From NCBI GenBank assembly GCA_038211505.1, contig JBBQVO010000001.1, positions 1-62,992 of the forward strand: 62,992 nucleotides of DNA, given 5' to 3'. The translations under genes were made by a program, and so were the position numbers. The notes under the pieces were generated by a model. That model saw only the letters and a list, made by a program, of their open reading frames with translations, was not told where the DNA came from and searched no databases. Below are positions 6,923-34,893 of this stretch, piece by piece (positions within the stretch are counted from its first letter, which is position 1; each line of letters begins with the position of its first letter). Origin of the DNA: Dehalococcoidia bacterium. Lineage in GTDB: Bacteria > Chloroflexota > Dehalococcoidia > DSTF01 > JACRBR01.

Positions 6923-7380
6923 TACGGCCCTGTGAACTGCTCGCGCGCGAAGAAGTCCACCAACCCGCGATCGGAATCGAGATAAAACGTCACCGTCGTG
7001 TCGCACGTCACGAAATTCGGAATGAGATGAGGGCACACATTCCTGAATCGCGCGAAGATCGTGTATCGCTCTGTGCTGTGCGCCCCGGCCGACGAGTCGG
7101 CCACATGTTCGTGTTCGATCGGGGTGTGCTCAGCGCCGCGCGCGTCCAGATACGCCGTGACGTCAGCCTCCGTCGCGCCAATAGGCAGGTTGCGGCGAAT
7201 CGAGTTCCGCGCGTCTTCGGGGCTAAATCGTCGATGGTTATCCACAACAGTGGTGACGGCGCATCCGCTTGCGATAACAATCGCAATCACGACAAGCGCA
7301 CTGAGGAGCATCTTTCGTCGGCTTCTGCCCTCGCGTTGCACATGATCATCTTCGGCTACAAGTCCAGAACTCTGAGTCAC
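6922..7380 (-). CDS. Hypothetical lipoprotein
   Basis: Signal peptide plus lipobox 'MLLSALVVIAIVIASGC'. The more likely start is the ATG at 7311. The longest ORF begins at 7380 and overlaps the birA stop. Confidence 0.5.
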   Translation of the reverse strand: MTQSSGLVAEDDHVQREGRSRRKMLLSALVVIAIVIASGCAVTTVVDNHRRFSPEDARNSIRRNLPIGATEADVTAYLDARGAEHTPIEHEHVADSSAGAHSTERYTIFARFRNVCPHLIPNFVTCDTTVTFYLDSDRGLVDFFAREQFTGP

Positions 7381-8180
7381 CGGCGCAGCGTCACATCGCC
7401 CGCTTCGATCGTGACGAGCGCGCCGTCCGCGGCCCGAATCACCAGCGCCCCTGTCGCATCGACGTCTTCGGCGATGCCTTCGACCACCGTCGTCGGCGTC
7501 GTAGCGCGGACGTCCTGGCCGAGCGTCGTCAGCCGCTCGCGCCAGCGCTCGTACGGCGAAGCGCCCGCGCAGGCGGCGTCGTACAACTGCTCGAAGCTGA
7601 GCATGTACGACGCGAGCAGCCCTTCCCGATCGACAGGCGCGCCTGTCTCGATCATCAAGCTGGTAGCGACGTCTCGGATCTCGGCGACGGCGCGCGTATC
7701 GAAATTGACATTGACCCCCGCGCCGACAAGCACGTACGCGTTGCGTTCGTCCGAAAGGTCGGTCTCAATCAAAATGCCGGCGACCTTGCGCGCGATACCG
7801 TCCGTCGCGCTGACGATCTGCACATCGTTCGGCCACTTGATGCCAGCGCGGATGCCGGCGATCGACTCGATCGCGTCAAAGATCGCCAGCGGCGCGATCA
7901 TCGCGATCTGGCGCAGGACCTCATGCGGGGGCCGCAGCAAAAGCGTCGACGCGAGATTGACCGCCCGTGGGCTGATCCAGGTGCGACCGAGGCGCCCGCG
8001 CCCGGATGTCTGATCATCGGTCGCAGCAAGCGTGCCTTCGCCCACGCCAGCGGTCGCGGCGTCGCGCGCAAGATCCATCGTCGAGCCGACGGATCGTTCA
8101 TAGAGAAGCTCTCGCGCGAATCGCCGCGTGTGCAAGAGCGACGTGAAGCGCGCGACATCGAAGGGTGTGGCGTCCGTCAT
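7377..8180 (-). CDS. birA: Biotin--[acetyl-CoA-carboxylase] ligase
   Basis: 267 aa with the BirA signature 'GRGRLGRTWISP' and 'KWPNDV'. No N-terminal HTH domain, so group I. Confidence 0.85.
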   Translation of the reverse strand: MTDATPFDVARFTSLLHTRRFARELLYERSVGSTMDLARDAATAGVGEGTLAATDDQTSGRGRLGRTWISPRAVNLASTLLLRPPHEVLRQIAMIAPLAIFDAIESIAGIRAGIKWPNDVQIVSATDGIARKVAGILIETDLSDERNAYVLVGAGVNVNFDTRAVAEIRDVATSLMIETGAPVDREGLLASYMLSFEQLYDAACAGASPYERWRERLTTLGQDVRATTPTTVVEGIAEDVDATGALVIRAADGALVTIEAGDVTLRR

Positions 8181-8665
8181 CGCGACTCCAGCGCGCCGAG
8201 CGCGTCCGTACAGTGCAGGTCGACATCAAGCTGCTTCGCCAGCGCGACATCCTGCAGCGCGTGGCAGGCGCGCGTCCAGTCGCCGACGAACGTCGTCTCG
8301 CGGCCGGCGCGCCGCGTGCGATCGTCAGTCGTCTGTGGCGACGGATCGGCGATCAGCGCCGAGACATCGGCGAGATTCCGCGACGCCACGAGAATATCGT
8401 GATGGGCGTCGCGCGCGCGCATCGGCGGCTCAAGCGTGTCAAGCGCGGCCGCGAAGGTGCGCACCGGCGGCTGCGCGCCGGCAGACGGCGTCGTGGCGCT
8501 GGCGGATTGGCGGTAGAGATCGCCAGCTGCCGACTCGACCGTCGCGTAGTAGCGCTGATAGCCGGCGAGGCTGGTGTCGGTGCCGCCGCATGCGATTGAT
8601 GCGGCGATCGCGACCGCGCCGGTCGTCGCCGCCAAGAGGCGATGACGGCTATTCGCCGCAGCCAA
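8177..8665 (-). CDS. Hypothetical lipoprotein, paralog of 8649..9203
   Basis: 'AVAIAASIACGG' signal/lipobox. It shares 'L(D/E)(T/A)L.P....(A)RDAH' and two conserved Cys residues with the upstream neighbour. Confidence 0.55.
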   Translation of the reverse strand: MAAANSRHRLLAATTGAVAIAASIACGGTDTSLAGYQRYYATVESAAGDLYRQSASATTPSAGAQPPVRTFAAALDTLEPPMRARDAHHDILVASRNLADVSALIADPSPQTTDDRTRRAGRETTFVGDWTRACHALQDVALAKQLDVDLHCTDALGALESR

Positions 8666-9203
8666 GGTTCACGGGCGAGTCGGCGTTCCGGCCGGCCGTC
8701 GCGAGTTCGGTGCAGGCTTCGAAGAAGCGCTCGATCGCCGGTCCGACCTTCGCTTCGGCCGTGGCGTCGTTGTCGGGCGTCGCGGCGTCCCGTTGCTCCT
8801 GTCCAACGACGATCAGCTCGCGCACCGCGTCGAGCAGCCGCTGGTGGGCGTCTCTCGTCGCGTCCGTCGGCGTCAGCGCCTCGAGGCCCGACCCAACCGC
8901 CTGAAGGTTCTCGACGCCCGCCGCAACGCCGGCGCTGTTGCTCTCCGGGATCGGCGTGAAATTGGGCGCCACTGTCCGCGTCGCTGCCGCGTCGTCAAAG
9001 CTCCTCTGCGACTGCGCGAAGATACGGTCGAGCTCCGCGAAGTAGGCCGAGTCCGAATCGCCGCCGGTCGCGACCGCCGCTATCGACGTGGTCGCGCCGG
9101 GAACGACCGAGGTCGCCGTCGACTTCGTGCCGCCGCCGCCACATGCAGCAGCGAAGAGCGCAAGAGTGGCCATCGGTACCAGTGCAACGCGGGTCTGGGT
9201 CAT
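8649..9203 (-). CDS. Hypothetical lipoprotein, paralog of 8177..8665
   Basis: 'MATLALFAAACGGGG' signal/lipobox. 'LEALTPTDATRDAHQRLL' aligns with 'LDTLEPPMRARDAHHDIL' in the paralog. Confidence 0.55.
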   Translation of the reverse strand: MTQTRVALVPMATLALFAAACGGGGTKSTATSVVPGATTSIAAVATGGDSDSAYFAELDRIFAQSQRSFDDAAATRTVAPNFTPIPESNSAGVAAGVENLQAVGSGLEALTPTDATRDAHQRLLDAVRELIVVGQEQRDAATPDNDATAEAKVGPAIERFFEACTELATAGRNADSPVNLGCGE

Positions 9204-16121: not shown

Positions 16122-16679
16122 TCAGGCGCGCTCCTGGTACTCGCCCGTCCCAGTGTTCACGCGAATCTTGTCGCCTTCGCTGACGAAGAGCGGCACGTTG
16201 ACGACGAGGCCGGTCTCCATCGTCGCCGGCTTCGTTGCGCCCGTCGCCGTGTCGCCCTTCACGCCTGGTTCGCACTGGGCGACGGCCATCACGACGGACG
16301 CCGGCAGTTCGATCCCGATCGGCTCGTCGCCGAGGAAGAGCACCTCGCAGGTGCCGTTTTCGGGGAGGAAGTCCTTTGCGTCGCCGACTTGGTCGGCGGT
16401 GAGCGGCACCTGGTCGTAGGTCTCGGTGTTCATGAAGTACATGATGCTGTCCTCGGTGTATGAGAACTGCATCGGCACGCGCTCGACGCGGACGCGCGGC
16501 CACTTCTCGCCGGCCTGGAACGACCGCTCGATGAGGTCGCCGCGGCGGACGTCGCGTAGCTTCATGCGCATCTGCGCCGAGCCGCGGCCCATCTTGATGT
16601 GATGAAACTCCATCACCTGATAGACGCGGCCGTCGAGCTCGATGGTCGCGCCGCGCTTCATGTCACCGGTAGAGATCAT
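16122..16679 (-). CDS. efp: Translation elongation factor P
   Basis: 185 aa from the ATG at 16679: 'MISTGDMKRGATIELDGRVYQVMEFHHIKMGRGSAQMRMKLRD...GVKGDTATGATKPATMETG'. Confidence 0.95.
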   Translation of the reverse strand: MISTGDMKRGATIELDGRVYQVMEFHHIKMGRGSAQMRMKLRDVRRGDLIERSFQAGEKWPRVRVERVPMQFSYTEDSIMYFMNTETYDQVPLTADQVGDAKDFLPENGTCEVLFLGDEPIGIELPASVVMAVAQCEPGVKGDTATGATKPATMETGLVVNVPLFVSEGDKIRVNTGTGEYQERA

Positions 16680-16693
16680 GGATGGCTCCGCTA

Positions 16694-16728
16694 GCTGATG
16701 GCTGTTGGCCGTTGGCCGTTGGCTTGGC
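16694..16728. repeat. Heptanucleotide array (GCYGTTG)n in the efp 5' leader
   Basis: gctgatg|gctgttg|gccgttg|gccgttg|gcttggc, located 15 nt upstream of the efp start. Confidence 0.7.
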
Positions 16729-16814
16729 AATTGCAATCGTTCGCGAACGCGAGAACGCTAACGAGATGGGCGAGTCGCGTCCAGTGTAGCGGCCGTCGCA
16801 TGTAGCTTCGAGAT

Positions 16815-17900
16815 CTACCCCACGAACTGCAGCTTCGGCGCGCGGCTCATGATGCGGGGCTTGCCGTTCTCGAGAACGACCATGTCTTCGATGCGGACGC
16901 CGCCCCAGCCCGTCACGTAGATGCCCGGCTCGATCGTGAACACCATGTTGTCTTCGAGCACATCGGTCGATGTCCGCCCGACGCGCGGCGCTTCGTGCAC
17001 TTCGAGGCCGATGCCGTGGCCGAGGCCGTGGCCAAACGTCTCGCCGTACCCGGCAGCCTCGATGACGTTGTGGGCGATCATGTGGCATTGCTCGCCGGTC
17101 ATGCCCCGCTTGACCATCTCTTCAGCGGTGAGCTGCGCGGTGAGGACGATATCGTAGATCTTCTTGAATTGATCGTCGGGCTTGCCCAGGAAGATCGTTC
17201 GCGTCAGGTCGGACATGTAGCCGCCGACGTCGCAGCCCATGTCGATGACAACGCCCTCGCCGGCCTCCAGCTTGCGGTCGCGCGGGTAGGCGTGCGGCAT
17301 GGCGCCCCACGGGCCGCCAGCGACGATCGTGTCGAAGGAGAGACCGTCGCCTCCGTGCTCGCGGATGTATTTCTCGATCTCCCACGCCACCTGCGTCTCG
17401 GTCCAGCCGGGCTCGACGCGTTGTGTGACGTCGGTGCACGCCGCATCACCAAGATCGACGGCCGCTTGCAGCGCGACGATCTCCGCCGGCTCTTTGTAGA
17501 GCCGCAGCCCTTCGACGACGCTCGACGTCGGCACAAAGCTCGGGCGCTCCATCTCGGCGATGTTGGCGATCGTCCTCTTGAATGCCGTATGCGTGGCGAC
17601 CGACATGTCGGTCGATTCAAACCCGAGCTTCTTGCCGCCGAGCCCCGCGAACGCCTCGGGCACCCAGCCATCGAAGCCGCCGACCTGCTTCTGCAGCCGG
17701 AAGTCGGGCGCCTGGGCCGCACTCTGTTCGTAGTACCGGAAGTCGGTAGCGATGATCGCGTCATCCGCAGAGACGAGCAGGTATCCCGACGAGCCGGTGA
17801 ATCCGCTGAGGTAGCGGCGATTCTTCGCGTTGGAGATCAAGATCGCGTCGAGTTCTTGCGCGGCAATCGCGTCACGAAGACGTTTGAGGCGTGCGTTCAT
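16815..17900 (-). CDS. pepP: Xaa-Pro aminopeptidase (M24B)
   Basis: 361 aa from the ATG at 17900 ('MNARLKRLRDAIAAQELDAILIS'). Metal ligands lie in 'VIDMGCDVGGYMSDLTRT', 'HGLGHGIGLEVHE', 'FTIEPGIY' and 'GVRIED'. Confidence 0.9.
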   Translation of the reverse strand: MNARLKRLRDAIAAQELDAILISNAKNRRYLSGFTGSSGYLLVSADDAIIATDFRYYEQSAAQAPDFRLQKQVGGFDGWVPEAFAGLGGKKLGFESTDMSVATHTAFKRTIANIAEMERPSFVPTSSVVEGLRLYKEPAEIVALQAAVDLGDAACTDVTQRVEPGWTETQVAWEIEKYIREHGGDGLSFDTIVAGGPWGAMPHAYPRDRKLEAGEGVVIDMGCDVGGYMSDLTRTIFLGKPDDQFKKIYDIVLTAQLTAEEMVKRGMTGEQCHMIAHNVIEAAGYGETFGHGLGHGIGLEVHEAPRVGRTSTDVLEDNMVFTIEPGIYVTGWGGVRIEDMVVLENGKPRIMSRAPKLQFVG

Positions 17901-17973
17901 GCGTACTGTTCCTTGCACCGACAGTTCGAGGTACTCCGCTCCCACGACGGGAGAGGCGATATCGTTTGCGGCT

Positions 17974-18414
17974 TCATTTCTGCCGCTTGATGATCTCGGC
18001 GAGCGCGTCGACAGCGAGCACGTATCCGTGGACGCCGAGACCGACGATAACGCCGCTGACGACGGAGGAGAGCAGAGATTCATGGCGCACCTTCTCGCGC
18101 TTCCAGACGTTCGAGATGTGCACCTCGATCGCCGGGATGCCGGCCCCGGCGACGGCGTCGCTCAGGGTGAGACTGGTGTGGGTGTAGGCACCCGCATTGA
18201 TGATGACGCCGGCGGCGTCCGTTTGCTCTCGCTGGAGCCAGTCGATCAGCGCGCCCTCTCCGTTCGACTGGAAGGCGCTGACTTCGAGTCCATGCACCGC
18301 CGCGCGCTCGCGCACCATCGCCTCGATCTCCGGCAGCGTCGTCGTGCCGTAGATCTCAGGTTCGCGGGTGCCGAGCGTATTCAGATTCGGGCCGTTGAGC
18401 AGAAGGATGCGCAT
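17974..18414 (-). CDS. aroQ: Type II 3-dehydroquinate dehydratase
   Basis: 146 aa from the ATG at 18414: 'MRILLLNGPNLNTLGTREPEIYG...INAGAYTHTSLTL...EVHISNV'. Confidence 0.95.
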   Translation of the reverse strand: MRILLLNGPNLNTLGTREPEIYGTTTLPEIEAMVRERAAVHGLEVSAFQSNGEGALIDWLQREQTDAAGVIINAGAYTHTSLTLSDAVAGAGIPAIEVHISNVWKREKVRHESLLSSVVSGVIVGLGVHGYVLAVDALAEIIKRQK

Positions 18415-18552
18415 CGGGCCATTGTATCCGGCGGCGCGTGATTCTGGCGCATCGCCAGGCCGCAAAGGCGCAAAATCGGTGTGGTTCCCTAGGCGGAATG
18501 CCGAGAATCAGTTGAGAGGCAAGCCGGTGATCGGGCATCCGGGAGTGGTTGC

Positions 18553-19890
18553 ATGGAACCGAACGCAAACGAAGACCTGATCGCAGCGACGATTCGCCGA
18601 GTGGCGCAGTCGAAGGCCGCGCGCGTCGATCCAGCCGACGACCCGCCCGCGGATGCGAGTCACGACGTCCGCCCGGATCTGCATCTCGTCGCCCGAGTCG
18701 AAGCTGACGAGTCGGAGAGCGGCCCGGCTGACGAAGACTCGATCGAGGCCACGATCCGCCGCGTCGCGGCCTCCCAGGCTGCCCGCGTGGCCGAGACTGA
18801 TGCGGACTTCGCGCCGGCAGAGCCTGCCGCCGGGGGCGAATCGCCGATCGCTGGTGTCGACGACGAGCACAGCTACGACGGAACCGCAAACAGCCAAGGC
18901 ATCCGAGCGGACGATGGTGACGCAGCTCGATGGGATCCGACCGAGGGCGACGAGGATCCGATCGAGGCGACGATCCGCCGCGTCGCCGCGTCGCAGGCTG
19001 CACGCGTCGCCGAGACCGACGCCGACTTCGCGCCAATCGTGACCGTTGGCAGCGACGAGTCGCACGACATCGGCGTTGTTGCTGAGTACGGCAGAGAGCC
19101 AACAACAGACATCGAAGGCGCCGATAACGAGCGCTCTGTCGCCAGCGCCGAATTCGACGACCGATCCGATCGGATCGAGTACGACGGCAACTCGACACCG
19201 CTGACCGCAGAAGATGCGGAAAGCCGTTGGCAGGACGCGCCGCCCGTGCGAATGCCAGCGGCTCACGATGGAGACTCGCTGGGCTGGCAAGTTGTCGCGC
19301 GTGGACTCGAAGAGGAGCTGCGCGAAACGCGGCGCGAGGTGCAAGCGCTCGCGCGGCGTGTTGAGCAGCTCGAACGCACACCGTCGAGCGCCACGCCGCA
19401 GCAGTTAAGGCCGGCAGCAACACCGCACGCCGTCGACGACTTCGACGACGCGCCGAAGGTCTCGCAGATGTCGTTCGGCGCGCCGCCGCGACCCGCCGTC
19501 ATGCGCGATCCGTCGCCCCAGACCGCGACGGCCGAGCATCTCGTGCCGGCGTATGACGAGCCAGAGGCGGAGTACGAACACCCGCCTGCGCCAGCCGCCG
19601 ATGCGAGACGCGGCCTCGAACTGCTGCCACGCTCGTATCGCATCACCGTCGAGGACAAGCGGCGCGGCGTCGATCTGGTGCCTTTGCATCGTGCGCTGCT
19701 GGGGATGGACGGCGTGCGTGATATGTCGCTTTTGAGCTACAGCAACGGCGTCGCGATCATCGCCATCGATACCCTCGGCGGTATCGACCCGGAGGCGCTG
19801 CGCAGCGCCGTCTCGCGAGCGATGGCGCGCGAGGCGGCCGTGGAAGTGCACAACGAGCAGACGATGGTTGTGAAATTGGCAGAGGAGTAG
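18553..19890 (+). CDS. Acidic repeat protein of unknown function: 3 'IxATIRRVA.S.AARV' helices, a coiled coil, and a C-terminal alpha/beta domain
   Basis: 445 aa with GGGAG 8 nt before the ATG. The motifs lie at nt 18571.., 18733..18816 and 18952..19035. The last two 84-nt copies differ at 13 positions, 12 of them synonymous. The coiled-coil segment is 'LEEELRETRREVQALARRVEQLE'. The C-terminal domain is 'YRITVEDKRRGVDLVPLHRALLGMDGVRDMSLLSYSNGVAIIAID...VEVHNEQTMVVKL'. Confidence 0.75.
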   Translation: MEPNANEDLIAATIRRVAQSKAARVDPADDPPADASHDVRPDLHLVARVEADESESGPADEDSIEATIRRVAASQAARVAETDADFAPAEPAAGGESPIAGVDDEHSYDGTANSQGIRADDGDAARWDPTEGDEDPIEATIRRVAASQAARVAETDADFAPIVTVGSDESHDIGVVAEYGREPTTDIEGADNERSVASAEFDDRSDRIEYDGNSTPLTAEDAESRWQDAPPVRMPAAHDGDSLGWQVVARGLEEELRETRREVQALARRVEQLERTPSSATPQQLRPAATPHAVDDFDDAPKVSQMSFGAPPRPAVMRDPSPQTATAEHLVPAYDEPEAEYEHPPAPAADARRGLELLPRSYRITVEDKRRGVDLVPLHRALLGMDGVRDMSLLSYSNGVAIIAIDTLGGIDPEALRSAVSRAMAREAAVEVHNEQTMVVKLAEE

Positions 19891-19899
19891 CCGCACACA

Positions 19900-21084
19900 A
19901 TGCGATGGTTGCCGTCAAAACGAGATGGTCGTGTCCGCGCCCCGGAGCCCTTTGTGGCGATCGAGTCGCTGGAACTTTCGCGCCCGGAAGGACGTGAGGG
20001 GCGGCTGTTCGATCTCGTCATCCTCTCGCTGTTCCTTCACAGCGCCGGTGGCCGCGGCGAGATGATGGGCGCCTTTCTCGAGAAGGCGCCGTCGGTCACG
20101 GAAGCGCTCTTCGTCTATCCGCTCGTGCTCGATAAGAAGCGCGATCTCCTGACCTCAACGGCGATGGAGGGCATCGTCGAACCGATGCTGGAACGGGCGA
20201 TGGACGCCTTCCAGGAAGACCTCACGGCTATCGAATACGACCTGCCGGTCAGCCACTTCCGTCGCCTCGTGATCGAGGGCGGCGAGATCGTCTTTCGCGA
20301 CTCGCTGGCGGACTTCTTCGAGGGTGTGATCCCGCTCGAGGTGCTGCAGGAAGCGGAGCAGAAGCTCGGCATCAAGAAGGTCGCGCTCGTGCCCATGCTC
20401 GTCGAAGGCGAGCCATACGGCGTCTCGATCTTCGCCTTCGACCACGATCGCATCGATGCGGAGATTGTCGAACTGCTCGTCGGACACTTCACGCTCTCGC
20501 TCCGCGACATCGCGACGCAGGAAGACACCGCGCGCTTCAACGATATCGATCCCGTGACCTGGGTGTACAACCGCCGCTACGTCGCCGAAGCGATCGAGAA
20601 CGAACTGATTCGCTGCGGTCGCTACGCGAAGATCCTCTCGCTCGTCGTCATCGATCTGGACGGCTTCTCGCGCTTCAACGCGTCGTACGGCCAATCGATG
20701 GGCGACCGGTTGCTGCGCAGCGCCGCCGTCAGCCTGGCCGAGGCGGTGTCGCCGCCGGAGATCGTGGCGAGGCTCGGCGACGACGAGTTCGCGATCCTGC
20801 TGCCGGAGACCAATCGCGCGGCGGCCGTGTCGGTGACGACGCGCCTGCTCGCCAGCCTGTCGCAGGTCTCGGTGTTCGGCGACGATGGCTCGCCGGAGCC
20901 GCTGAAGGCGTCGGTGGCGATCGTCTGCTTCCCGGAGGATGGCACGTCGGCGAAGGACCTGCTCGATAGCGCGAACTCCGACATCGAGCAGGCGAAGCGC
21001 GAGCGCGACGAGCAAGCGCGAAGCGCGACGAATCGCAACGCCAACCCGCTGGCGCGCGCGGCTGGCGAGCGGCTGCGCGGCTGA
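19900..21084 (+). CDS. GAF-like sensor plus GGDEF-domain protein (signature variant GDDEF)
   Basis: 394 aa. The GGDEF-domain landmarks are 'DPVTWVYNRRY', 'VIDLDGFSRFNASYGQSMGD' and 'ARLGDDEFAILLPET'. It starts 9 nt after the preceding gene's stop. Confidence 0.8.
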   Translation: MRWLPSKRDGRVRAPEPFVAIESLELSRPEGREGRLFDLVILSLFLHSAGGRGEMMGAFLEKAPSVTEALFVYPLVLDKKRDLLTSTAMEGIVEPMLERAMDAFQEDLTAIEYDLPVSHFRRLVIEGGEIVFRDSLADFFEGVIPLEVLQEAEQKLGIKKVALVPMLVEGEPYGVSIFAFDHDRIDAEIVELLVGHFTLSLRDIATQEDTARFNDIDPVTWVYNRRYVAEAIENELIRCGRYAKILSLVVIDLDGFSRFNASYGQSMGDRLLRSAAVSLAEAVSPPEIVARLGDDEFAILLPETNRAAAVSVTTRLLASLSQVSVFGDDGSPEPLKASVAIVCFPEDGTSAKDLLDSANSDIEQAKRERDEQARSATNRNANPLARAAGERLRG

Positions 21085-21197
21085 GCGTACGACGGCGAAC
21101 ATCTAACAGCAAAGAGCCAACATCAAAGCGGCGTTGACCGACTGAGGCGGCGGCCTTCAAGTGACCGCGTGCCATCGGGCGCGCGGCAGGCGCGTCG

Positions 21198-21962
21198 TTA
21201 TGGGAGCGAGCTCAGGAGCGATTTGAGCTCGCCGAGGCGGTGGATGACGGCGTCTGGCTGCCGCGTGGCGTCGGCGTAGAGGCGGGTCGCGTATTGCTGC
21301 GTCAGGATGGCGTACATGCCGGCTGCCTTCGCGCCGGCGATGTCGTGCACGGGGCTGTCGCCGACGAACGCTGCTTCGTGCGGTTGCACCCGTAGTTCGC
21401 GGAGTGACTTCTCGAAGAGCGATCGGTGCGGCTTGCGATAGCCCTCGTCGGCCGAGACGACGACGCTGCGCATCAGCTGCTCGATGTCGTGCCGCCGCAG
21501 CATCGCACGGATCGACGCGGTGTCGGCGAGCGTGTTCGTGATACAGCCGAGCCCGTAGCCGCTCGCATCGAGATCGTGCAGCGCTTCGAGCGTGCCGTCG
21601 CCGACAATCAGCGCTTCACCCTCGGTCGCAAACAGCGGTGGTGTGATCTCGGCGAGCAGCCCCGGTTCGAGTTCTACGCCGAGCTTTCGGCAGCCTTCAT
21701 CAACCCAGCGCGTCGACGGCGGCTGCTCGACGACGAGTCTGTGCGTGGCGTACGTGCCGTCGCTGGCGAAGTATGTCTCGGACGCTTCGACGAGCACGTC
21801 GCGCACGGCGTCACGGAACGCCGTCGCCGAAGGCAGATCGTCGCGACCGAGGCGCTCGGCGAGCGCCGCGCGCATGGCGGCGTACGCGGCATCGAGCGCA
21901 GCCGGGTGCGGGCCGATGTCCCAGATCGTATGGCCGAGATCGAAGACAACCGCGCGGATCAT
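21198..21962 (-). CDS. HAD superfamily hydrolase
   Basis: 254 aa with motif I 'VVFDLGHTIWD', motif II 'LGCITNT' and motif IV 'FVGDSPVHDIAGAKAAG'. Confidence 0.75.
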   Translation of the reverse strand: MIRAVVFDLGHTIWDIGPHPAALDAAYAAMRAALAERLGRDDLPSATAFRDAVRDVLVEASETYFASDGTYATHRLVVEQPPSTRWVDEGCRKLGVELEPGLLAEITPPLFATEGEALIVGDGTLEALHDLDASGYGLGCITNTLADTASIRAMLRRHDIEQLMRSVVVSADEGYRKPHRSLFEKSLRELRVQPHEAAFVGDSPVHDIAGAKAAGMYAILTQQYATRLYADATRQPDAVIHRLGELKSLLSSLP

Positions 21963-34521: not shown

Positions 34522-34893
34522 GCGGGTGCCAGCGGGCCGGGTGGCCGCTCGCCGCGAGGCGGGAGGAAAGTCCGAACTCCACAGGGCAGGGTGCCCGCTA
34601 ACAGCGGGGCGTCGCGAGGCGACGGAAAGTGCCACAGAGACATACCGCCCGCAAGGGTAAGGGTGAAATGGTGCGGTAAGAGCGCACCGGCGGCGTGGAG
34701 ACACGGCGGCCGGGCAAACCCCACCCGGAGCAAGGCCACATAGGGGACCGCGTCCGTTCGCGGACTAAGGACGGCCCGTCCGAGAGTCCCGGGTTGGCCG
34801 CTCGAGCCGCGCAGCAATGCTCGGCCCAGATAGATGGCCACCGATCCGCCTTCGGCGGATTACAGAATTCGGCTTACAGGCCCGCTGGCACTT
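34522..34893 (+). ncRNA. rnpB: RNase P RNA, bacterial type A
   Basis: Conserved P4 strands 'GGGAGGAAAGTCCG' and 'ACAGAATTCGGCTTA', plus 'GGGTGAAA..GGTGCGGTAAGAGCGCACC'. P1 pairs 'gtgccagcgggcc' (34526..) with 'ggcccgctggcac' (..34891), and P2 pairs 'ggtggcc' with 'ggccacc'. Confidence 0.92.

What the first reader, a model, noticed from the sequence alone, without database searches (positions are those of the whole stretch)
18553..21084. Acidic protein with three PopZ-like 'IEATIRRVAASQAARV' helices, co-oriented with a GAF-GGDEF-variant gene
The 445-aa product of 18553..19890 is strongly acidic and low in complexity. It contains three copies of a ~20-28-aa amphipathic motif: 'EDLIAATIRRVAQSKAARV', then 'EDSIEATIRRVAASQAARVAETDADFAP', then 'EDPIEATIRRVAASQAARVAETDADFAP'. 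The two long copies (nt 18733..18816 and 18952..19035) differ at 13 of 84 nucleotides. Twelve of those changes are synonymous and one is a Ser/Pro change. This pattern indicates selection on the peptide rather than a recent DNA duplication. From memory, the core [DE][DE]xIxA[ST]IRR[VI] resembles the conserved N-terminal helix of alphaproteobacterial PopZ ('MEEILASIRRIISED'), which recruits ParB and other clients. The architecture is also PopZ-like: client-binding helix, acidic Pro-rich linker, then a C-terminal self-association region. Here that region is a coiled coil 'LEEELRETRREVQALARRVEQLE' plus a ~90-aa beta-alpha-beta domain. The next gene starts 9 nt downstream. It encodes a GAF-like sensor fused to a GGDEF domain whose signature reads GDDEF and whose GH..GD reads GQ..GD. 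Together these could be a c-di-GMP-linked scaffold or polar hub in a lineage outside the Alphaproteobacteria. I know of no described family with a triplicated helix of this type.
Basis: partly seen in the sequence, partly recalled or inferred. Interest (0 to 1): 0.7.

Follow-up and report, generated by a model that had tools for sequence, protein, structure and literature searches.

The report
Repeat-helix scaffold protein with pseudo-cyclase partner
This is a previously undescribed two-gene unit of uncultured Chloroflexota: a mostly disordered acidic protein carrying 1-9 copies of an almost invariant short helix, always followed by a sensor protein whose cyclic-di-GMP-synthase motif is degenerate. 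It looks like a scaffold or adaptor, resembles the Caulobacter pole organiser PopZ in layout, but is not a PopZ family member.

Summary
ORF 18553..19890 encodes a 445-aa acidic protein with three 'IxATIRRVA' helices. The two long copies differ at 13 of 84 nt, 12 of them synonymous (dN/dS 0.017).

ORF1 belongs to a rare family with no Pfam or NCBIfam match, found only in uncultured Chloroflexota/Dehalococcoidia. Family members share:
- 1-9 copies of a nearly invariant helix (D-E-D-x-I-E-A-T-I-R-R-V), the first at residue 10 in 97 of 110;
- acidic disordered spacers and a coiled coil;
- a conserved Pro-rich linear motif;
- a very conserved 85-aa ferredoxin-like C-terminal domain.

A GAF-GGDEF gene follows directly in every informative locus, including distant clades with different flanks. 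Its 'GG' is not conserved (GN/KD/GD/NN-DEF) and it has no I-site, so it is probably not a normal cyclase.

PopZ membership fails. There is no DUF2497 oligomerisation domain, the C-terminal fold is different, and the helix resemblance (IxA[ST]IRR[IV]) is only suggestive (hhalign P=7e-4; the motif HMM scores PopZ at -3 bits).

Best reading: a multivalent 'sticker-and-spacer' adaptor or scaffold that works with the pseudo-cyclase. The function is inferred, not shown.

The parts
18553..19890 (+). ORF1: 445-aa acidic, mostly disordered protein. It is the founding member here of an unnamed Chloroflexota family.
   Evidence: There is a GGGAG Shine-Dalgarno sequence 8-12 nt upstream of the ATG.
18571..18624 (+). 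Helix copy 1 (aa 7-24, EDLIAATIRRVAQSKAAR). This is the N-terminal copy, whose core starts at residue 10 in 97 of 110 complete homologs.
18733..18816 (+). Helix copy 2 with its tail (aa 61-88, EDSIEATIRRVAASQAARVAETDADFAP).
18952..19035 (+). Helix copy 3 with its tail (aa 134-161, EDPIEATIRRVAASQAARVAETDADFAP).
19279..19377 (+). Coiled-coil-type helix (aa 243-275) with a heptad pattern of L/V residues. It is conserved in all clades of the wider family.
   Evidence: AF2 pLDDT 94. Weak Trimer_CC hit, E = 0.03. Alignments.
19435..19542 (+). Conserved linear motif in the second disordered linker: DDFDDAP..(x)..GAPPRPAVMRDPSPQTATAEHL. The family consensus is DDWDDxPxxPRxPxGxPPRPAIxRDPSPxTATAExL.
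19603..19887 (+). C-terminal ferredoxin-like domain (aa 351-445; folded core 360-442). It is the most conserved part of ORF1, with 32 invariant positions among 31 diverse homologs.
19900..21084 (+). ORF2: 394-aa GAF-like sensor, stalk helix and degenerate GGDEF domain. It is probably co-transcribed with ORF1: the gap is 9 nt, GAGGAG lies inside the ORF1 end, and no terminator was found.
19984..20454 (+). GAF-like domain of ORF2 (aa 29-185).
   Evidence: AF2 and Foldseek. PF13185 in orthologs. Borderline in the window protein, E = 0.17.
20542..21009 (+). GGDEF domain of ORF2 (aa 215-370). The signature GDDEF lies at 20776-20790, and the I-site position reads SPPE.
21043..21081 (+). Conserved C-terminal tail of ORF2, NPLARAAGERLRG. 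It is present in the clade that carries IEATIRRV helices and absent from the one distant-clade partner examined.

Best explanation
ORF1 and ORF2 form a conserved two-gene module of uncultured Chloroflexota.

ORF1 is a multivalent adaptor or scaffold built on the 'stickers and spacers' plan:
- It self-associates through its coiled coil and its ferredoxin-like C-terminal domain.
- On long acidic disordered spacers it displays 1-9 copies of a nearly invariant amphipathic helix (DEDxIEATIRRV), which act as protein-binding sites.
- The most likely targets of the helices are the co-encoded, very conserved GAF-xxDEF protein or ORF1's own folded end.
- Either target would cluster the GAF-xxDEF protein into higher-order assemblies.

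ORF2 has lost the GG of GGDEF and the I-site, so it more probably acts as a ligand or GTP sensor, or as an output domain, than as a normal diguanylate cyclase.

Shown: the anatomy, the selection on the helices, the disorder and fold predictions, the module's conservation and the degeneracy of the motif.
Inferred: that the helices bind protein, which protein they bind, self-assembly, and any cellular role.
For: 1. **Helix conservation.** The helices are under extreme purifying selection while the spacers are free to vary. There are 324 instances in 120 homologs, with I5, T8, R10 and R11 at least 98% conserved. dN/dS between the two window copies is 0.017 at dS of about 1.
2. **Copy number and spacing vary.** Copy number is 1-9 and spacing is 28-134 aa, while the first copy stays at residue 10. 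This is the behaviour of linear binding motifs, not of a folded repeat domain.
3. **Structure prediction.** AF2 predicts isolated confident helices, a 33-residue coiled-coil helix and a compact C-terminal domain, joined by segments below pLDDT 50. The spacers are 24% acidic and 6% basic.
4. **Adjacency.** The GAF-GGDEF gene follows within 0-20 nt in 28 of 29 species-level genome loci. The exception, L033, has a tandem ORF1 paralog in between. The same holds in 5 of 5 contig look-ups and in all 15 metagenome loci that had any downstream sequence beyond the C-terminal domain.
5. **Adjacency survives rearrangement.** The pair stays together where flanks differ (P0111, L018, L025, L031). It also holds in distant clades B and C, whose C-terminal domain scores only 60-100 bits and whose neighbourhood is unrelated (L038/L039, L040, L037).
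6. **Conservation of the candidate targets.** ORF2 is 73-85% identical across the clade and the ORF1 C-terminal domain 62-78%. Both are conserved enough to be the invariant helix's target.
7. **Exclusivity.** The full motif DEDxIEATIRRV occurs only in this family. In 27 metagenome stretches, all 16 with enough downstream sequence carry the C-terminal domain.
8. **A parallel in a sister clade.** Clade B replaces the helix by a different repeated helix, F[ED]R[VL]WxR[LI]ExER, in 1-3 copies. The platform of coiled coil, domain and GGDEF partner is therefore ancestral, and the helices are exchangeable add-ons.
9. **ORF2 degeneracy.** In 120 orthologs the signature reads GNDEF 24, KDDEF 24, GDDEF 16, NNDEF 9, GADEY 8 and others, and the I-site position reads SPPE or SAPE. 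The clade C partner also reads GNDEF.
Against: - No binding, assembly or localisation was tested, and the tools gave no way to model a complex.
- The conservation of almost every residue in positions 5-12 of the helix, not just one face, could mean something other than simple groove binding.
- Most homologs have only two copies and 4 of 110 have one, so high multivalency is not a general requirement.
- ORF2 keeps DE[FY], the upstream Asp, and the Asn and Asp that contact guanine, so some nucleotide chemistry cannot be excluded.
- Adjacency within the main clade is partly ordinary synteny, because the whole aroQ-pepP-efp ... HAD-AP_endonuclease-PIG-L neighbourhood is conserved.
Confidence: 0.45

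Rival explanations
1. ORF1 is a functional analogue of PopZ, by convergence or very remote homology. It would be a pole- or site-organising condensate hub whose helices recruit several different clients, such as ParB or ParA and signalling proteins. ORF2 would be just one of those clients or a regulator.
For: - The order of parts matches PopZ as described in PMC9512792 and PMC12999525: an N-terminal client-binding helix, an acidic Pro-containing disordered region, then a C-terminal self-association region.
- The first helix sits at residue 10, as in PopZ.
- The core IxA[ST]IRR[IV] is shared and is preceded by acidic residues. hhalign of the motif against the PopZ N-terminus gives 16 columns, 44% identity and P = 6.9e-4.
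- That core occurs 0 times in 746,000 residues of high-GC decoy ORFs.
Against: - There is no PopZ oligomerisation domain: PF10691 covers PopZ aa 106-174 and does not hit ORF1.
- The C-terminal fold is different.
- The family's own motif HMM scores PopZ at -3 bits, lower than 38% of decoys.
- The comparison with PopZ was chosen after the fact from memory, so P = 7e-4 is not corrected for that.
- The spacers have half the proline content of PopZ (0.12 against 0.23, PMC9512792).
- The strict, exclusive pairing with one GGDEF gene points to a dedicated partner rather than a general hub.
- No par genes are nearby.
Confidence: 0.12
2. ORF1 is a dedicated regulatory subunit of ORF2 rather than a scaffold, in the manner of the SiaC-SiaD or YfiR-YfiN partner-controlled cyclases. 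Its ferredoxin-like (ACT/HMA-like) domain would sense a small ligand or nucleotide and dock on the ORF2 stalk or GAF domain. The helices would act as tethered intramolecular regulators (autoinhibitory or pseudo-ligand elements).
For: - The coiled coil, the C-terminal domain and the GGDEF partner are the parts conserved across all clades, while the helices are clade-specific.
- The b1-loop-a1 segment, where ACT and HMA domains bind ligand (my own knowledge), is the most invariant stretch: YRITVEDKRRGVDLVPLHRAL.
- A Foldseek hit of ORF2 to the SiaD-SiaC complex 7e6g shows there is precedent for an operon-encoded protein partner of a stalk-containing GGDEF protein.
- One contig shows an in-frame fusion of the C-terminal domain to the GAF-GGDEF protein (P0343).
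- PopZ H1 itself folds back onto its own oligomerisation domain (PMC12999525).
Against: - Variable copy number up to 9 is hard to explain by 1:1 regulation.
- Foldseek matches of the C-terminal domain are generic and non-significant (E at least 0.01: AcrB subdomains, S6, CopA), so no ligand can be proposed.
- The P0343 contig carries obvious frameshift errors, so the fusion may be an artefact.
- ORF1 shows no similarity to SiaC or other known partners.
Confidence: 0.25
3. The helices bind a nucleotide second messenger such as c-di-GMP directly through the paired arginines, as the helical motifs of RsiG do (my own knowledge). This would make ORF1 a multivalent nucleotide sponge or effector for the neighbouring GGDEF protein.
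For: - The RR pair is invariant on a helix.
- The gene is genetically linked to a GGDEF-family gene.
Against: - The motif does not fit the known helical c-di-GMP motif E(x)3S(x)2R(x)3Q(x)3D, nor PilZ, MshEN or I-site patterns (inspection of the consensus; the patterns are from my own knowledge).
- The partner GGDEF is degenerate, so a local c-di-GMP source is doubtful.
- The helix region is net acidic.
Confidence: 0.06
4. The finding is not a real or meaningful feature: a spurious ORF, or a low-complexity repeat kept similar by recent duplication or gene conversion.
For: The DNA is high in GC and many long spurious ORFs overlap this region.
Against: - More than 200 homologs have conserved ends and a confidently folded C-terminal domain.
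- dS of about 1 between the copies excludes recent duplication or conversion.
- A Shine-Dalgarno sequence and conserved operon structure are present.
Confidence: 0.01

Closest known systems
PopZ (pole-organizing protein Z, Alphaproteobacteria; Pfam PF10691/DUF2497)
   Same: - The order of parts is the same: an N-terminal amphipathic helix about 10 residues from the start, an acidic disordered spacer, then a C-terminal self-association region.
- The helix core is shared: I-x-A-[ST]-I-R-R-[IV] after acidic residues (PopZ EEILASIRRII; here EDLIEATIRRV).
- Both are strongly acidic.
   Different: - The helix is repeated 1-9 times here and occurs once in PopZ.
- The C-terminal module is a coiled coil plus a ferredoxin-like alpha/beta domain, not the three-helix DUF2497 bundle.
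- The spacers are less Pro-rich.
- The phylum is different.
- The gene is strictly paired with a GAF-xxDEF gene.
- There is no significant sequence relationship.
Partner-controlled GGDEF proteins, e.g. SiaC-SiaD of Pseudomonas aeruginosa (PDB 7e6g)
   Same: - A small non-enzymatic protein is encoded in the same operon as a GGDEF protein that has a helical stalk.
- The ORF2 model matches SiaD and other stalk-GGDEF structures.
   Different: - ORF1 has no similarity to SiaC.
- ORF1 is mostly disordered with repeated helices.
- ORF2 has a GAF sensor and a degenerate active site, whereas SiaD is an active cyclase.
GAF-GGDEF diguanylate cyclases (e.g. Dcsbis/PA2771, PDB 4zmu) and degenerate-GGDEF proteins that act as receptors or scaffolds (e.g. 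PopA, PelD, GdpS, CsrD; my own knowledge)
   Same: - ORF2 has the same domain order and fold.
- Like the degenerate group, it lacks a canonical GG[DE]EF.
   Different: - Both glycine positions are free to vary (G/K/N/T/D... then N/D/A/P) while DE[FY] is kept.
- There is no RxxD I-site, so it cannot be a c-di-GMP receptor of the PopA or PelD type.
- The only non-canonical motifs known to be active change just the first Gly (AGDEF, SGDEF; PMC3974145).
Ferredoxin-like small domains (ACT, HMA, ribosomal protein S6, AcrB porter subdomains)
   Same: The b-a-b-b-a-b topology of the ORF1 C-terminal domain matches.
   Different: - Only generic, non-significant structural matches were found (E at least 0.01).
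- There are no sequence relatives in PDB or Pfam.
- The domain has an extra C-terminal strand and a distinctive invariant YR[IV]TVEDKRRGVDLVPLHRAL segment.

Membership tests
PopZ (PF10691/DUF2497) | C-terminal helical oligomerisation domain (H2-H4) matched by PF10691 | tested here: not met
   PF10691 matches authentic PopZ at aa 106-174. It gives no hit on ORF1 even at E up to 10. The ORF1 C-terminus is a b-a-b-b-a-b-b domain.
PopZ (PF10691/DUF2497) | N-terminal client-binding helix H1 (MEEILASIRRIISED) | tested here: inconclusive
   - The core IxA[ST]IRR[IV] is shared.
- hhalign gives P = 6.9e-4, probability 27%, over 16 columns.
- The family motif HMM scores PopZ at -3 bits, below 38% of decoys.
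- The segment is too short to separate homology, convergence and chance.
PopZ (PF10691/DUF2497) | Acidic, proline-rich disordered linker between the helix and the oligomerisation domain | tested here: met
   pLDDT is below 50 over 27-59, 87-131, 158-214 and other segments. The spacers are 24% acidic and 12% Pro, against 29% and 23% in PopZ (PMC9512792). The linker is therefore acidic but less Pro-rich.
PopZ (PF10691/DUF2497) | Polar condensate formation and recruitment of ParB, ParA and signalling clients | not testable with these tools
   This needs imaging and binding experiments.
Diguanylate cyclase (GGDEF, PF00990) | GGDEF-domain fold and profile match | tested here: met
   Pfam E = 6.4e-33 over aa 215-370; TIGR00254 E = 1.4e-32. 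Foldseek matches to PleD, DosC, WspR, DgcR and others have E of 1e-9 to 1e-12.
Diguanylate cyclase (GGDEF, PF00990) | GG[DE]EF active-site signature | tested here: not met
   The window protein reads GDDEF. In 120 orthologs the signature reads GNDEF 24, KDDEF 24, GDDEF 16, NNDEF 9, GADEY 8, NDDEF 7 and others. None has GG. The clade C partner reads GNDEF.
Diguanylate cyclase (GGDEF, PF00990) | RxxD allosteric I-site five residues upstream of the signature | tested here: not met
   The position reads SPPE in 109 and SAPE in 6 of 120 orthologs.
Diguanylate cyclase (GGDEF, PF00990) | c-di-GMP synthesis from GTP | not testable with these tools
   An enzyme assay is needed. The metal and guanine contacts (D in IDLDGF, N in FNxxYG, GD, DE[FY]) are retained.
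GAF domain | GAF fold N-terminal to the output domain | tested here: met
   - AF2 predicts a helix plus six-stranded sheet domain at aa 29-185.
- The full-length Foldseek alignments cover 362-366 columns with the GAF-GGDEF protein Dcsbis 4zmu and 402-423 columns with phytochrome-linked cyclases.
- PF13185 is recorded for some orthologs.
- The window protein itself scores only E = 0.17.
SiaC-type cyclase partner | Sequence or fold relationship of ORF1 to SiaC | tested here: not met
   ORF1 has no Pfam, NCBIfam or PDB sequence hit. Foldseek gives only generic ferredoxin-like hits.
Anti-phage defence systems (PADLOC) | Match to any known defence protein model | tested here: not met
   No PADLOC hit for ORF1 or ORF2 at E up to 1. 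No relatives in viral contigs. The flanks are housekeeping genes.

The most novel reading that the evidence does not exclude
Chloroflexota have independently evolved a PopZ-like organising hub. It would be a self-assembling, condensate-forming scaffold whose valency is tuned by the number (1-9) of an H1-like client-binding helix. A GAF-coupled pseudo-diguanylate cyclase would control or read out its assembly. That would be the first cell-organising hub described in this phylum and a striking case of convergence on the same helix sequence.
Probability: 0.12. Interest if true: 0.85.

Novelty: new variant of a known kind. Interest (0 to 1): 0.55.

Why it matters
- **An untouched module.** If the reading is right, this is an experimentally untouched protein-organising module in a phylum with almost no known cell biology.
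- **A natural valency series.** Homologs carry from 1 to 9 copies of one near-invariant binding helix on disordered spacers. This is the variable that condensate and scaffold engineers change by hand in PopZ (PMC9512792).
- **A new GGDEF subfamily.** The module also defines a conserved GGDEF subfamily in which both glycines are free to vary but DE[FY] is fixed. This raises the question of what such a domain does.
- **A directly testable question.** The helix is short (about 19 aa) and the likely partners are encoded next to it, so the binding question can be tested with peptides and two recombinant proteins.

Tried and rejected
1. **Modelling ORF1 and ORF2 as one chain.** A hand-joined sequence aligned badly: MAFFT stacked the two families on each other. 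I dropped this because the structure tool reports no contacts or PAE, so docking could not have been judged anyway.
2. **Profile and sequence searches on ORF1.** Pfam, NCBIfam, PADLOC and PDB searches, run variously on ORF1, its C-terminal domain, five distant relatives and two clade-A homologs, gave nothing significant.
3. **Foldseek of the ORF1 model against PDB.** Only generic ferredoxin-like matches appeared.
4. **Viral contigs.** No relatives were found. A motif-only query was too short for the tool.
5. **The motif as a general targeting peptide.** I tested whether other proteins carry it. They do not: all informative metagenome matches lie in this family, and within the window and 42 loci it occurs only in ORF1 homologs.
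6. **Membrane-binding amphipathic helix.** Rejected, because the helix with its flank is net acidic and has small hydrophobic residues.
7. **DNA binding.** Rejected, because the protein has 92 acidic against 44 basic residues.
8. **The P0343 'Rosetta-stone' fusion.** I treat it only as evidence of adjacency, because that contig has several frameshifts.
9. **Literature.** No paper links PopZ to Chloroflexi in any relevant way.


Full report
**1.

The + strand ORF 18553..19890 encodes 445 aa. It has 92 acidic and 44 basic residues. The motif 'TIRRVA' occurs at aa 13, 67 and 140. The two long copies (nt 18733-18816 and 18952-19035) differ at 13 of 84 nt, with 12 synonymous third-position changes and one Ser/Pro change.

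By Nei-Gojobori counting, pS is 0.55, dS is about 0.97, dN is 0.016 and dN/dS is 0.017. The chance of at least 12 synonymous changes out of 13 under neutrality is 1e-6. The copies are therefore old at the DNA level and held constant at the peptide level. Recent duplication or gene conversion is excluded.

ORF2 (19900..21084) starts 9 nt after the ORF1 stop and in the same frame. A GAGGAG sequence lies upstream of it, and no terminator-like site was found anywhere in the scanned region 18300-21300, which includes the 9-nt gap.

**2. ORF1 belongs to an unnamed, rare, lineage-restricted family**

Pfam and NCBIfam give nothing for ORF1, and PDB sequences give nothing. A search of 5.8 billion proteins finds 210 relatives. 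Where they are named at all, the name is 'hypothetical protein', from Chloroflexi/Dehalococcoidia MAGs, and none has a Pfam domain. A scan of 185,579 species genomes finds it in 30, all uncultured Chloroflexota/Dehalococcoidia.

In 120 homologs the motif occurs 324 times. Its consensus is D-E-D-[LPA]-I-E-A-T-I-R-R-V-[AQ]-[AE]-x-[KQ]-A-A-R. I5, T8, R10 and R11 are at least 98% conserved. Among the 110 homologs with a complete N-terminus:

| Copies | 1 | 2 | 3 | 4 | 5 | 6 | 7 | 9 |
|---|---|---|---|---|---|---|---|---|
| Proteins | 4 | 59 | 20 | 19 | 4 | 2 | 1 | 1 |

Spacing between copies is 28-134 aa, and the first copy's core starts at residue 10 in 97 of the 110. Three copies is thus one value in a range, not a family constant.

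**3. Anatomy**

AF2 with 71 homologs gives the following:
- Confident isolated helices at 7-24, 62-84 and 136-157 (pLDDT 83-91).
- A 33-residue helix at 243-275 (pLDDT 94) with an L/V heptad pattern.
- A b-a-b-b-a-b-b domain at 360-442 (pLDDT 97).
- pLDDT below 50 for most of the rest.

The spacers are 24% acidic, 6% basic and 12% Pro. Alignment shows a further conserved linear motif in the last spacer, DDWDDxPxxPRxPxGxPPRPAIxRDPSPxTATAExL. It also shows an extremely conserved C-terminal domain with 32 invariant columns among 31 diverse sequences. This domain includes the segment YR[IV]TVEDKRRGVDLVPLHRAL.

Foldseek against PDB finds only generic ferredoxin-like matches at E of at least 0.01: AcrB porter subdomains, ribosomal protein S6 and CopA HMA. 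A profile search of PDB sequences finds nothing.

**4. The wider family and the gene pair**

An exhaustive HMM search with the C-terminal domain over 1.84 billion cluster representatives finds only 157 proteins. Besides the IEATIRRV clade (A), there are shorter relatives of 180-360 aa at 60-100 bits. They share the coiled coil (W..AL..[LI]ERS..EA..AI..LR), a disordered linker and the C-terminal domain, but not the IEATIRRV helix.
- Clade B carries a different helix, F[ED]R[VL]WxR[LI]ExER, in 1-3 copies.
- Clade C carries neither helix.

A GAF-GGDEF homolog follows ORF1's homolog directly in these sets:
- 28 of 29 species loci. In the exception, L033, a tandem ORF1 paralog sits in between.
- 5 of 5 contig look-ups.
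- All 15 metagenome loci that had any downstream sequence beyond the C-terminal domain.
- Clade C (L038/L039, with unrelated flanks of thiolase, acyl-CoA dehydrogenase and ADH), clade B (L040) and L037.

Within clade A much of the surrounding synteny is also conserved (aroQ-pepP-efp upstream; HAD, AP endonuclease and PIG-L downstream). Adjacency there is weaker evidence on its own. The distant clades and the rearranged loci (P0111, L018, L025, L031) make the case for a functional pair.

**5. ORF2**

ORF2 has a clear GGDEF domain (E = 6e-33). Its AF2 model shows a GAF-like domain (aa 29-185), a stalk helix (187-213) and the GGDEF domain. The model aligns with the GAF-GGDEF protein Dcsbis (4zmu), with phytochrome-linked cyclases (5llx, 6et7), and with DgcR, PleD, WspR and SiaD.

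The active-site signature is not conserved at its two glycines. In 120 orthologs it reads GNDEF 24, KDDEF 24, GDDEF 16, NNDEF 9, GADEY 8, NDDEF 7 and others. The I-site position reads SPPE or SAPE. The clade C partner also reads GNDEF.

Non-canonical motifs known to be active change only the first Gly, as in AGDEF and SGDEF (PMC3974145). ORF2 is therefore probably not a conventional cyclase, and without RxxD it is not an I-site c-di-GMP receptor. It does keep the metal- and guanine-contacting residues, so nucleotide binding remains possible.

ORF2 is 73-85% identical across clade A, far more conserved than ORF1 outside its motifs. Its C-terminal tail NPLARAAGERLRG is conserved in clade A and absent from the one clade C partner examined.

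**6. The PopZ question**

My recalled Caulobacter PopZ sequence proved 97% identical to database entries named PopZ. PF10691 covers only PopZ aa 106-174, the oligomerisation domain. It does not hit ORF1, and the ORF1 C-terminal fold is different. A defining feature is therefore tested and not met.

I tested the N-terminal helix in two ways:
- An HMM of 300 distinct motif instances scores PopZ at -3 bits, below 38% of 4,901 high-GC decoy ORFs.
- hhalign of the motif alignment against the PopZ N-terminus gives 16 columns, 44% identity, P = 6.9e-4 and probability 27%.

The shared core I.A[ST]IRR[IV] is absent from 746,000 decoy residues. The resemblance is real but short, and PopZ was picked after the fact from memory. 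It cannot establish homology.

At the level of layout the parallel is good. PopZ has an N-terminal client-binding helix, an acidic IDR and a C-terminal self-association region (PMC9512792, PMC12999525).

**7. Mechanism**

The pattern fits linear binding motifs ('stickers') on spacers attached to a self-associating end. That pattern has four elements:
- near-invariant short helices;
- freely varying number and spacing of those helices;
- disordered acidic linkers;
- an oligomerising coiled coil plus a folded domain.

The full motif is exclusive to this family, so it is not a shared targeting peptide. The most conserved and always-present candidate targets are ORF2 and ORF1's own C-terminal region. 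PopZ H1 also contacts its own oligomerisation domain (PMC12999525).

I therefore favour a multivalent adaptor or scaffold that assembles with, and clusters, the GAF-xxDEF protein (confidence 0.45). The rivals are:
- a dedicated ligand-sensing regulatory subunit in the SiaC-SiaD manner (0.25);
- a true PopZ-like multi-client hub (0.12);
- direct nucleotide binding by the RR helices (0.06);
- an artefact (0.01).

None of the binding steps has been shown.

**8. Novelty and verdict**

The family, its helix and its pairing with an xxDEF pseudo-cyclase are undescribed in Pfam, NCBIfam, PDB, PADLOC and the searched literature. In kind, it is a new variant of known things: IDR scaffolds with recognition helices, and partner-controlled GGDEF proteins. 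It is not a member of either family.

Interest is moderate to high (0.55). The features are clean, strongly selected and easily testable. However, the organisms are uncultured and the function is inferred.

Noticed in passing
P0290, P0331, P0336, P0345, P0355 and about 35 other proteins: A sister clade of the family carries a different repeated short helix, F[ED]R[VL]WxR[LI]ExER, in 1-3 copies just upstream of the same C-terminal domain. The platform appears to swap its helix 'stickers' between clades.
   Followed up: partly
L033:4834-9870: There is a tandem duplication of the ORF1 homolog. The second copy (6933..8675) has a more diverged C-terminal domain and lies between the first copy and the GGDEF gene.
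   Followed up: partly
L037:3907-5235 (protein P0343): The C-terminal domain is called in frame with the GAF-GGDEF homolog as one 442-aa protein. The contig has several frameshifts, so this may be a real fusion or an assembly error. In the window, ORF1 and ORF2 are also in the same frame, separated by a stop and 3 codons.
   Followed up: partly
window 21043-21081 and orthologs: ORF2 ends in a conserved tail, NPLARA[AS]GER[LI]RG. It is present throughout the IEATIRRV clade but absent from the one distant-clade partner examined (L038). It is a candidate co-evolving partner site for the helix.
   Followed up: partly
L047:326-784, L061:3262-3720, L057:2404-3006: In some loci a second, more distant GGDEF-domain gene (about 29-34% identical to ORF2) lies next to the module: upstream of ORF1 and on the opposite strand in L047 and L061, upstream on the same strand in L057.
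   Followed up: no
L046 (Ga0137405_1322788, 4419 nt): The contig carries the ORF1-ORF2 module twice in inverted orientation around its centre. This is most likely a palindromic assembly artefact.
   Followed up: no
window 34529-34892 (+): A bacterial RNase P RNA, class A, is present at full length (275.7 bits). No tRNA genes were found anywhere in the 63-kb window.
   Followed up: no
window 16122-18465 (-): The cluster efp (16122..16736), Xaa-Pro aminopeptidase (16815..18083) and type II 3-dehydroquinase aroQ (17974..18465) lies divergent from ORF1. The arrangement is conserved in most homologous loci. The listed pepP ORF overlaps aroQ by about 110 nt, so its true start is probably further downstream.
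   Followed up: no
window 18733-19035: The 9-residue tails after helix copies 2 and 3 (AETDADFAP) are identical in protein but differ at 4 synonymous sites, although this tail is not conserved across the family. This points to lineage-specific constraint, or possibly selection for synonymous divergence between intragenic repeats.
   Followed up: partly
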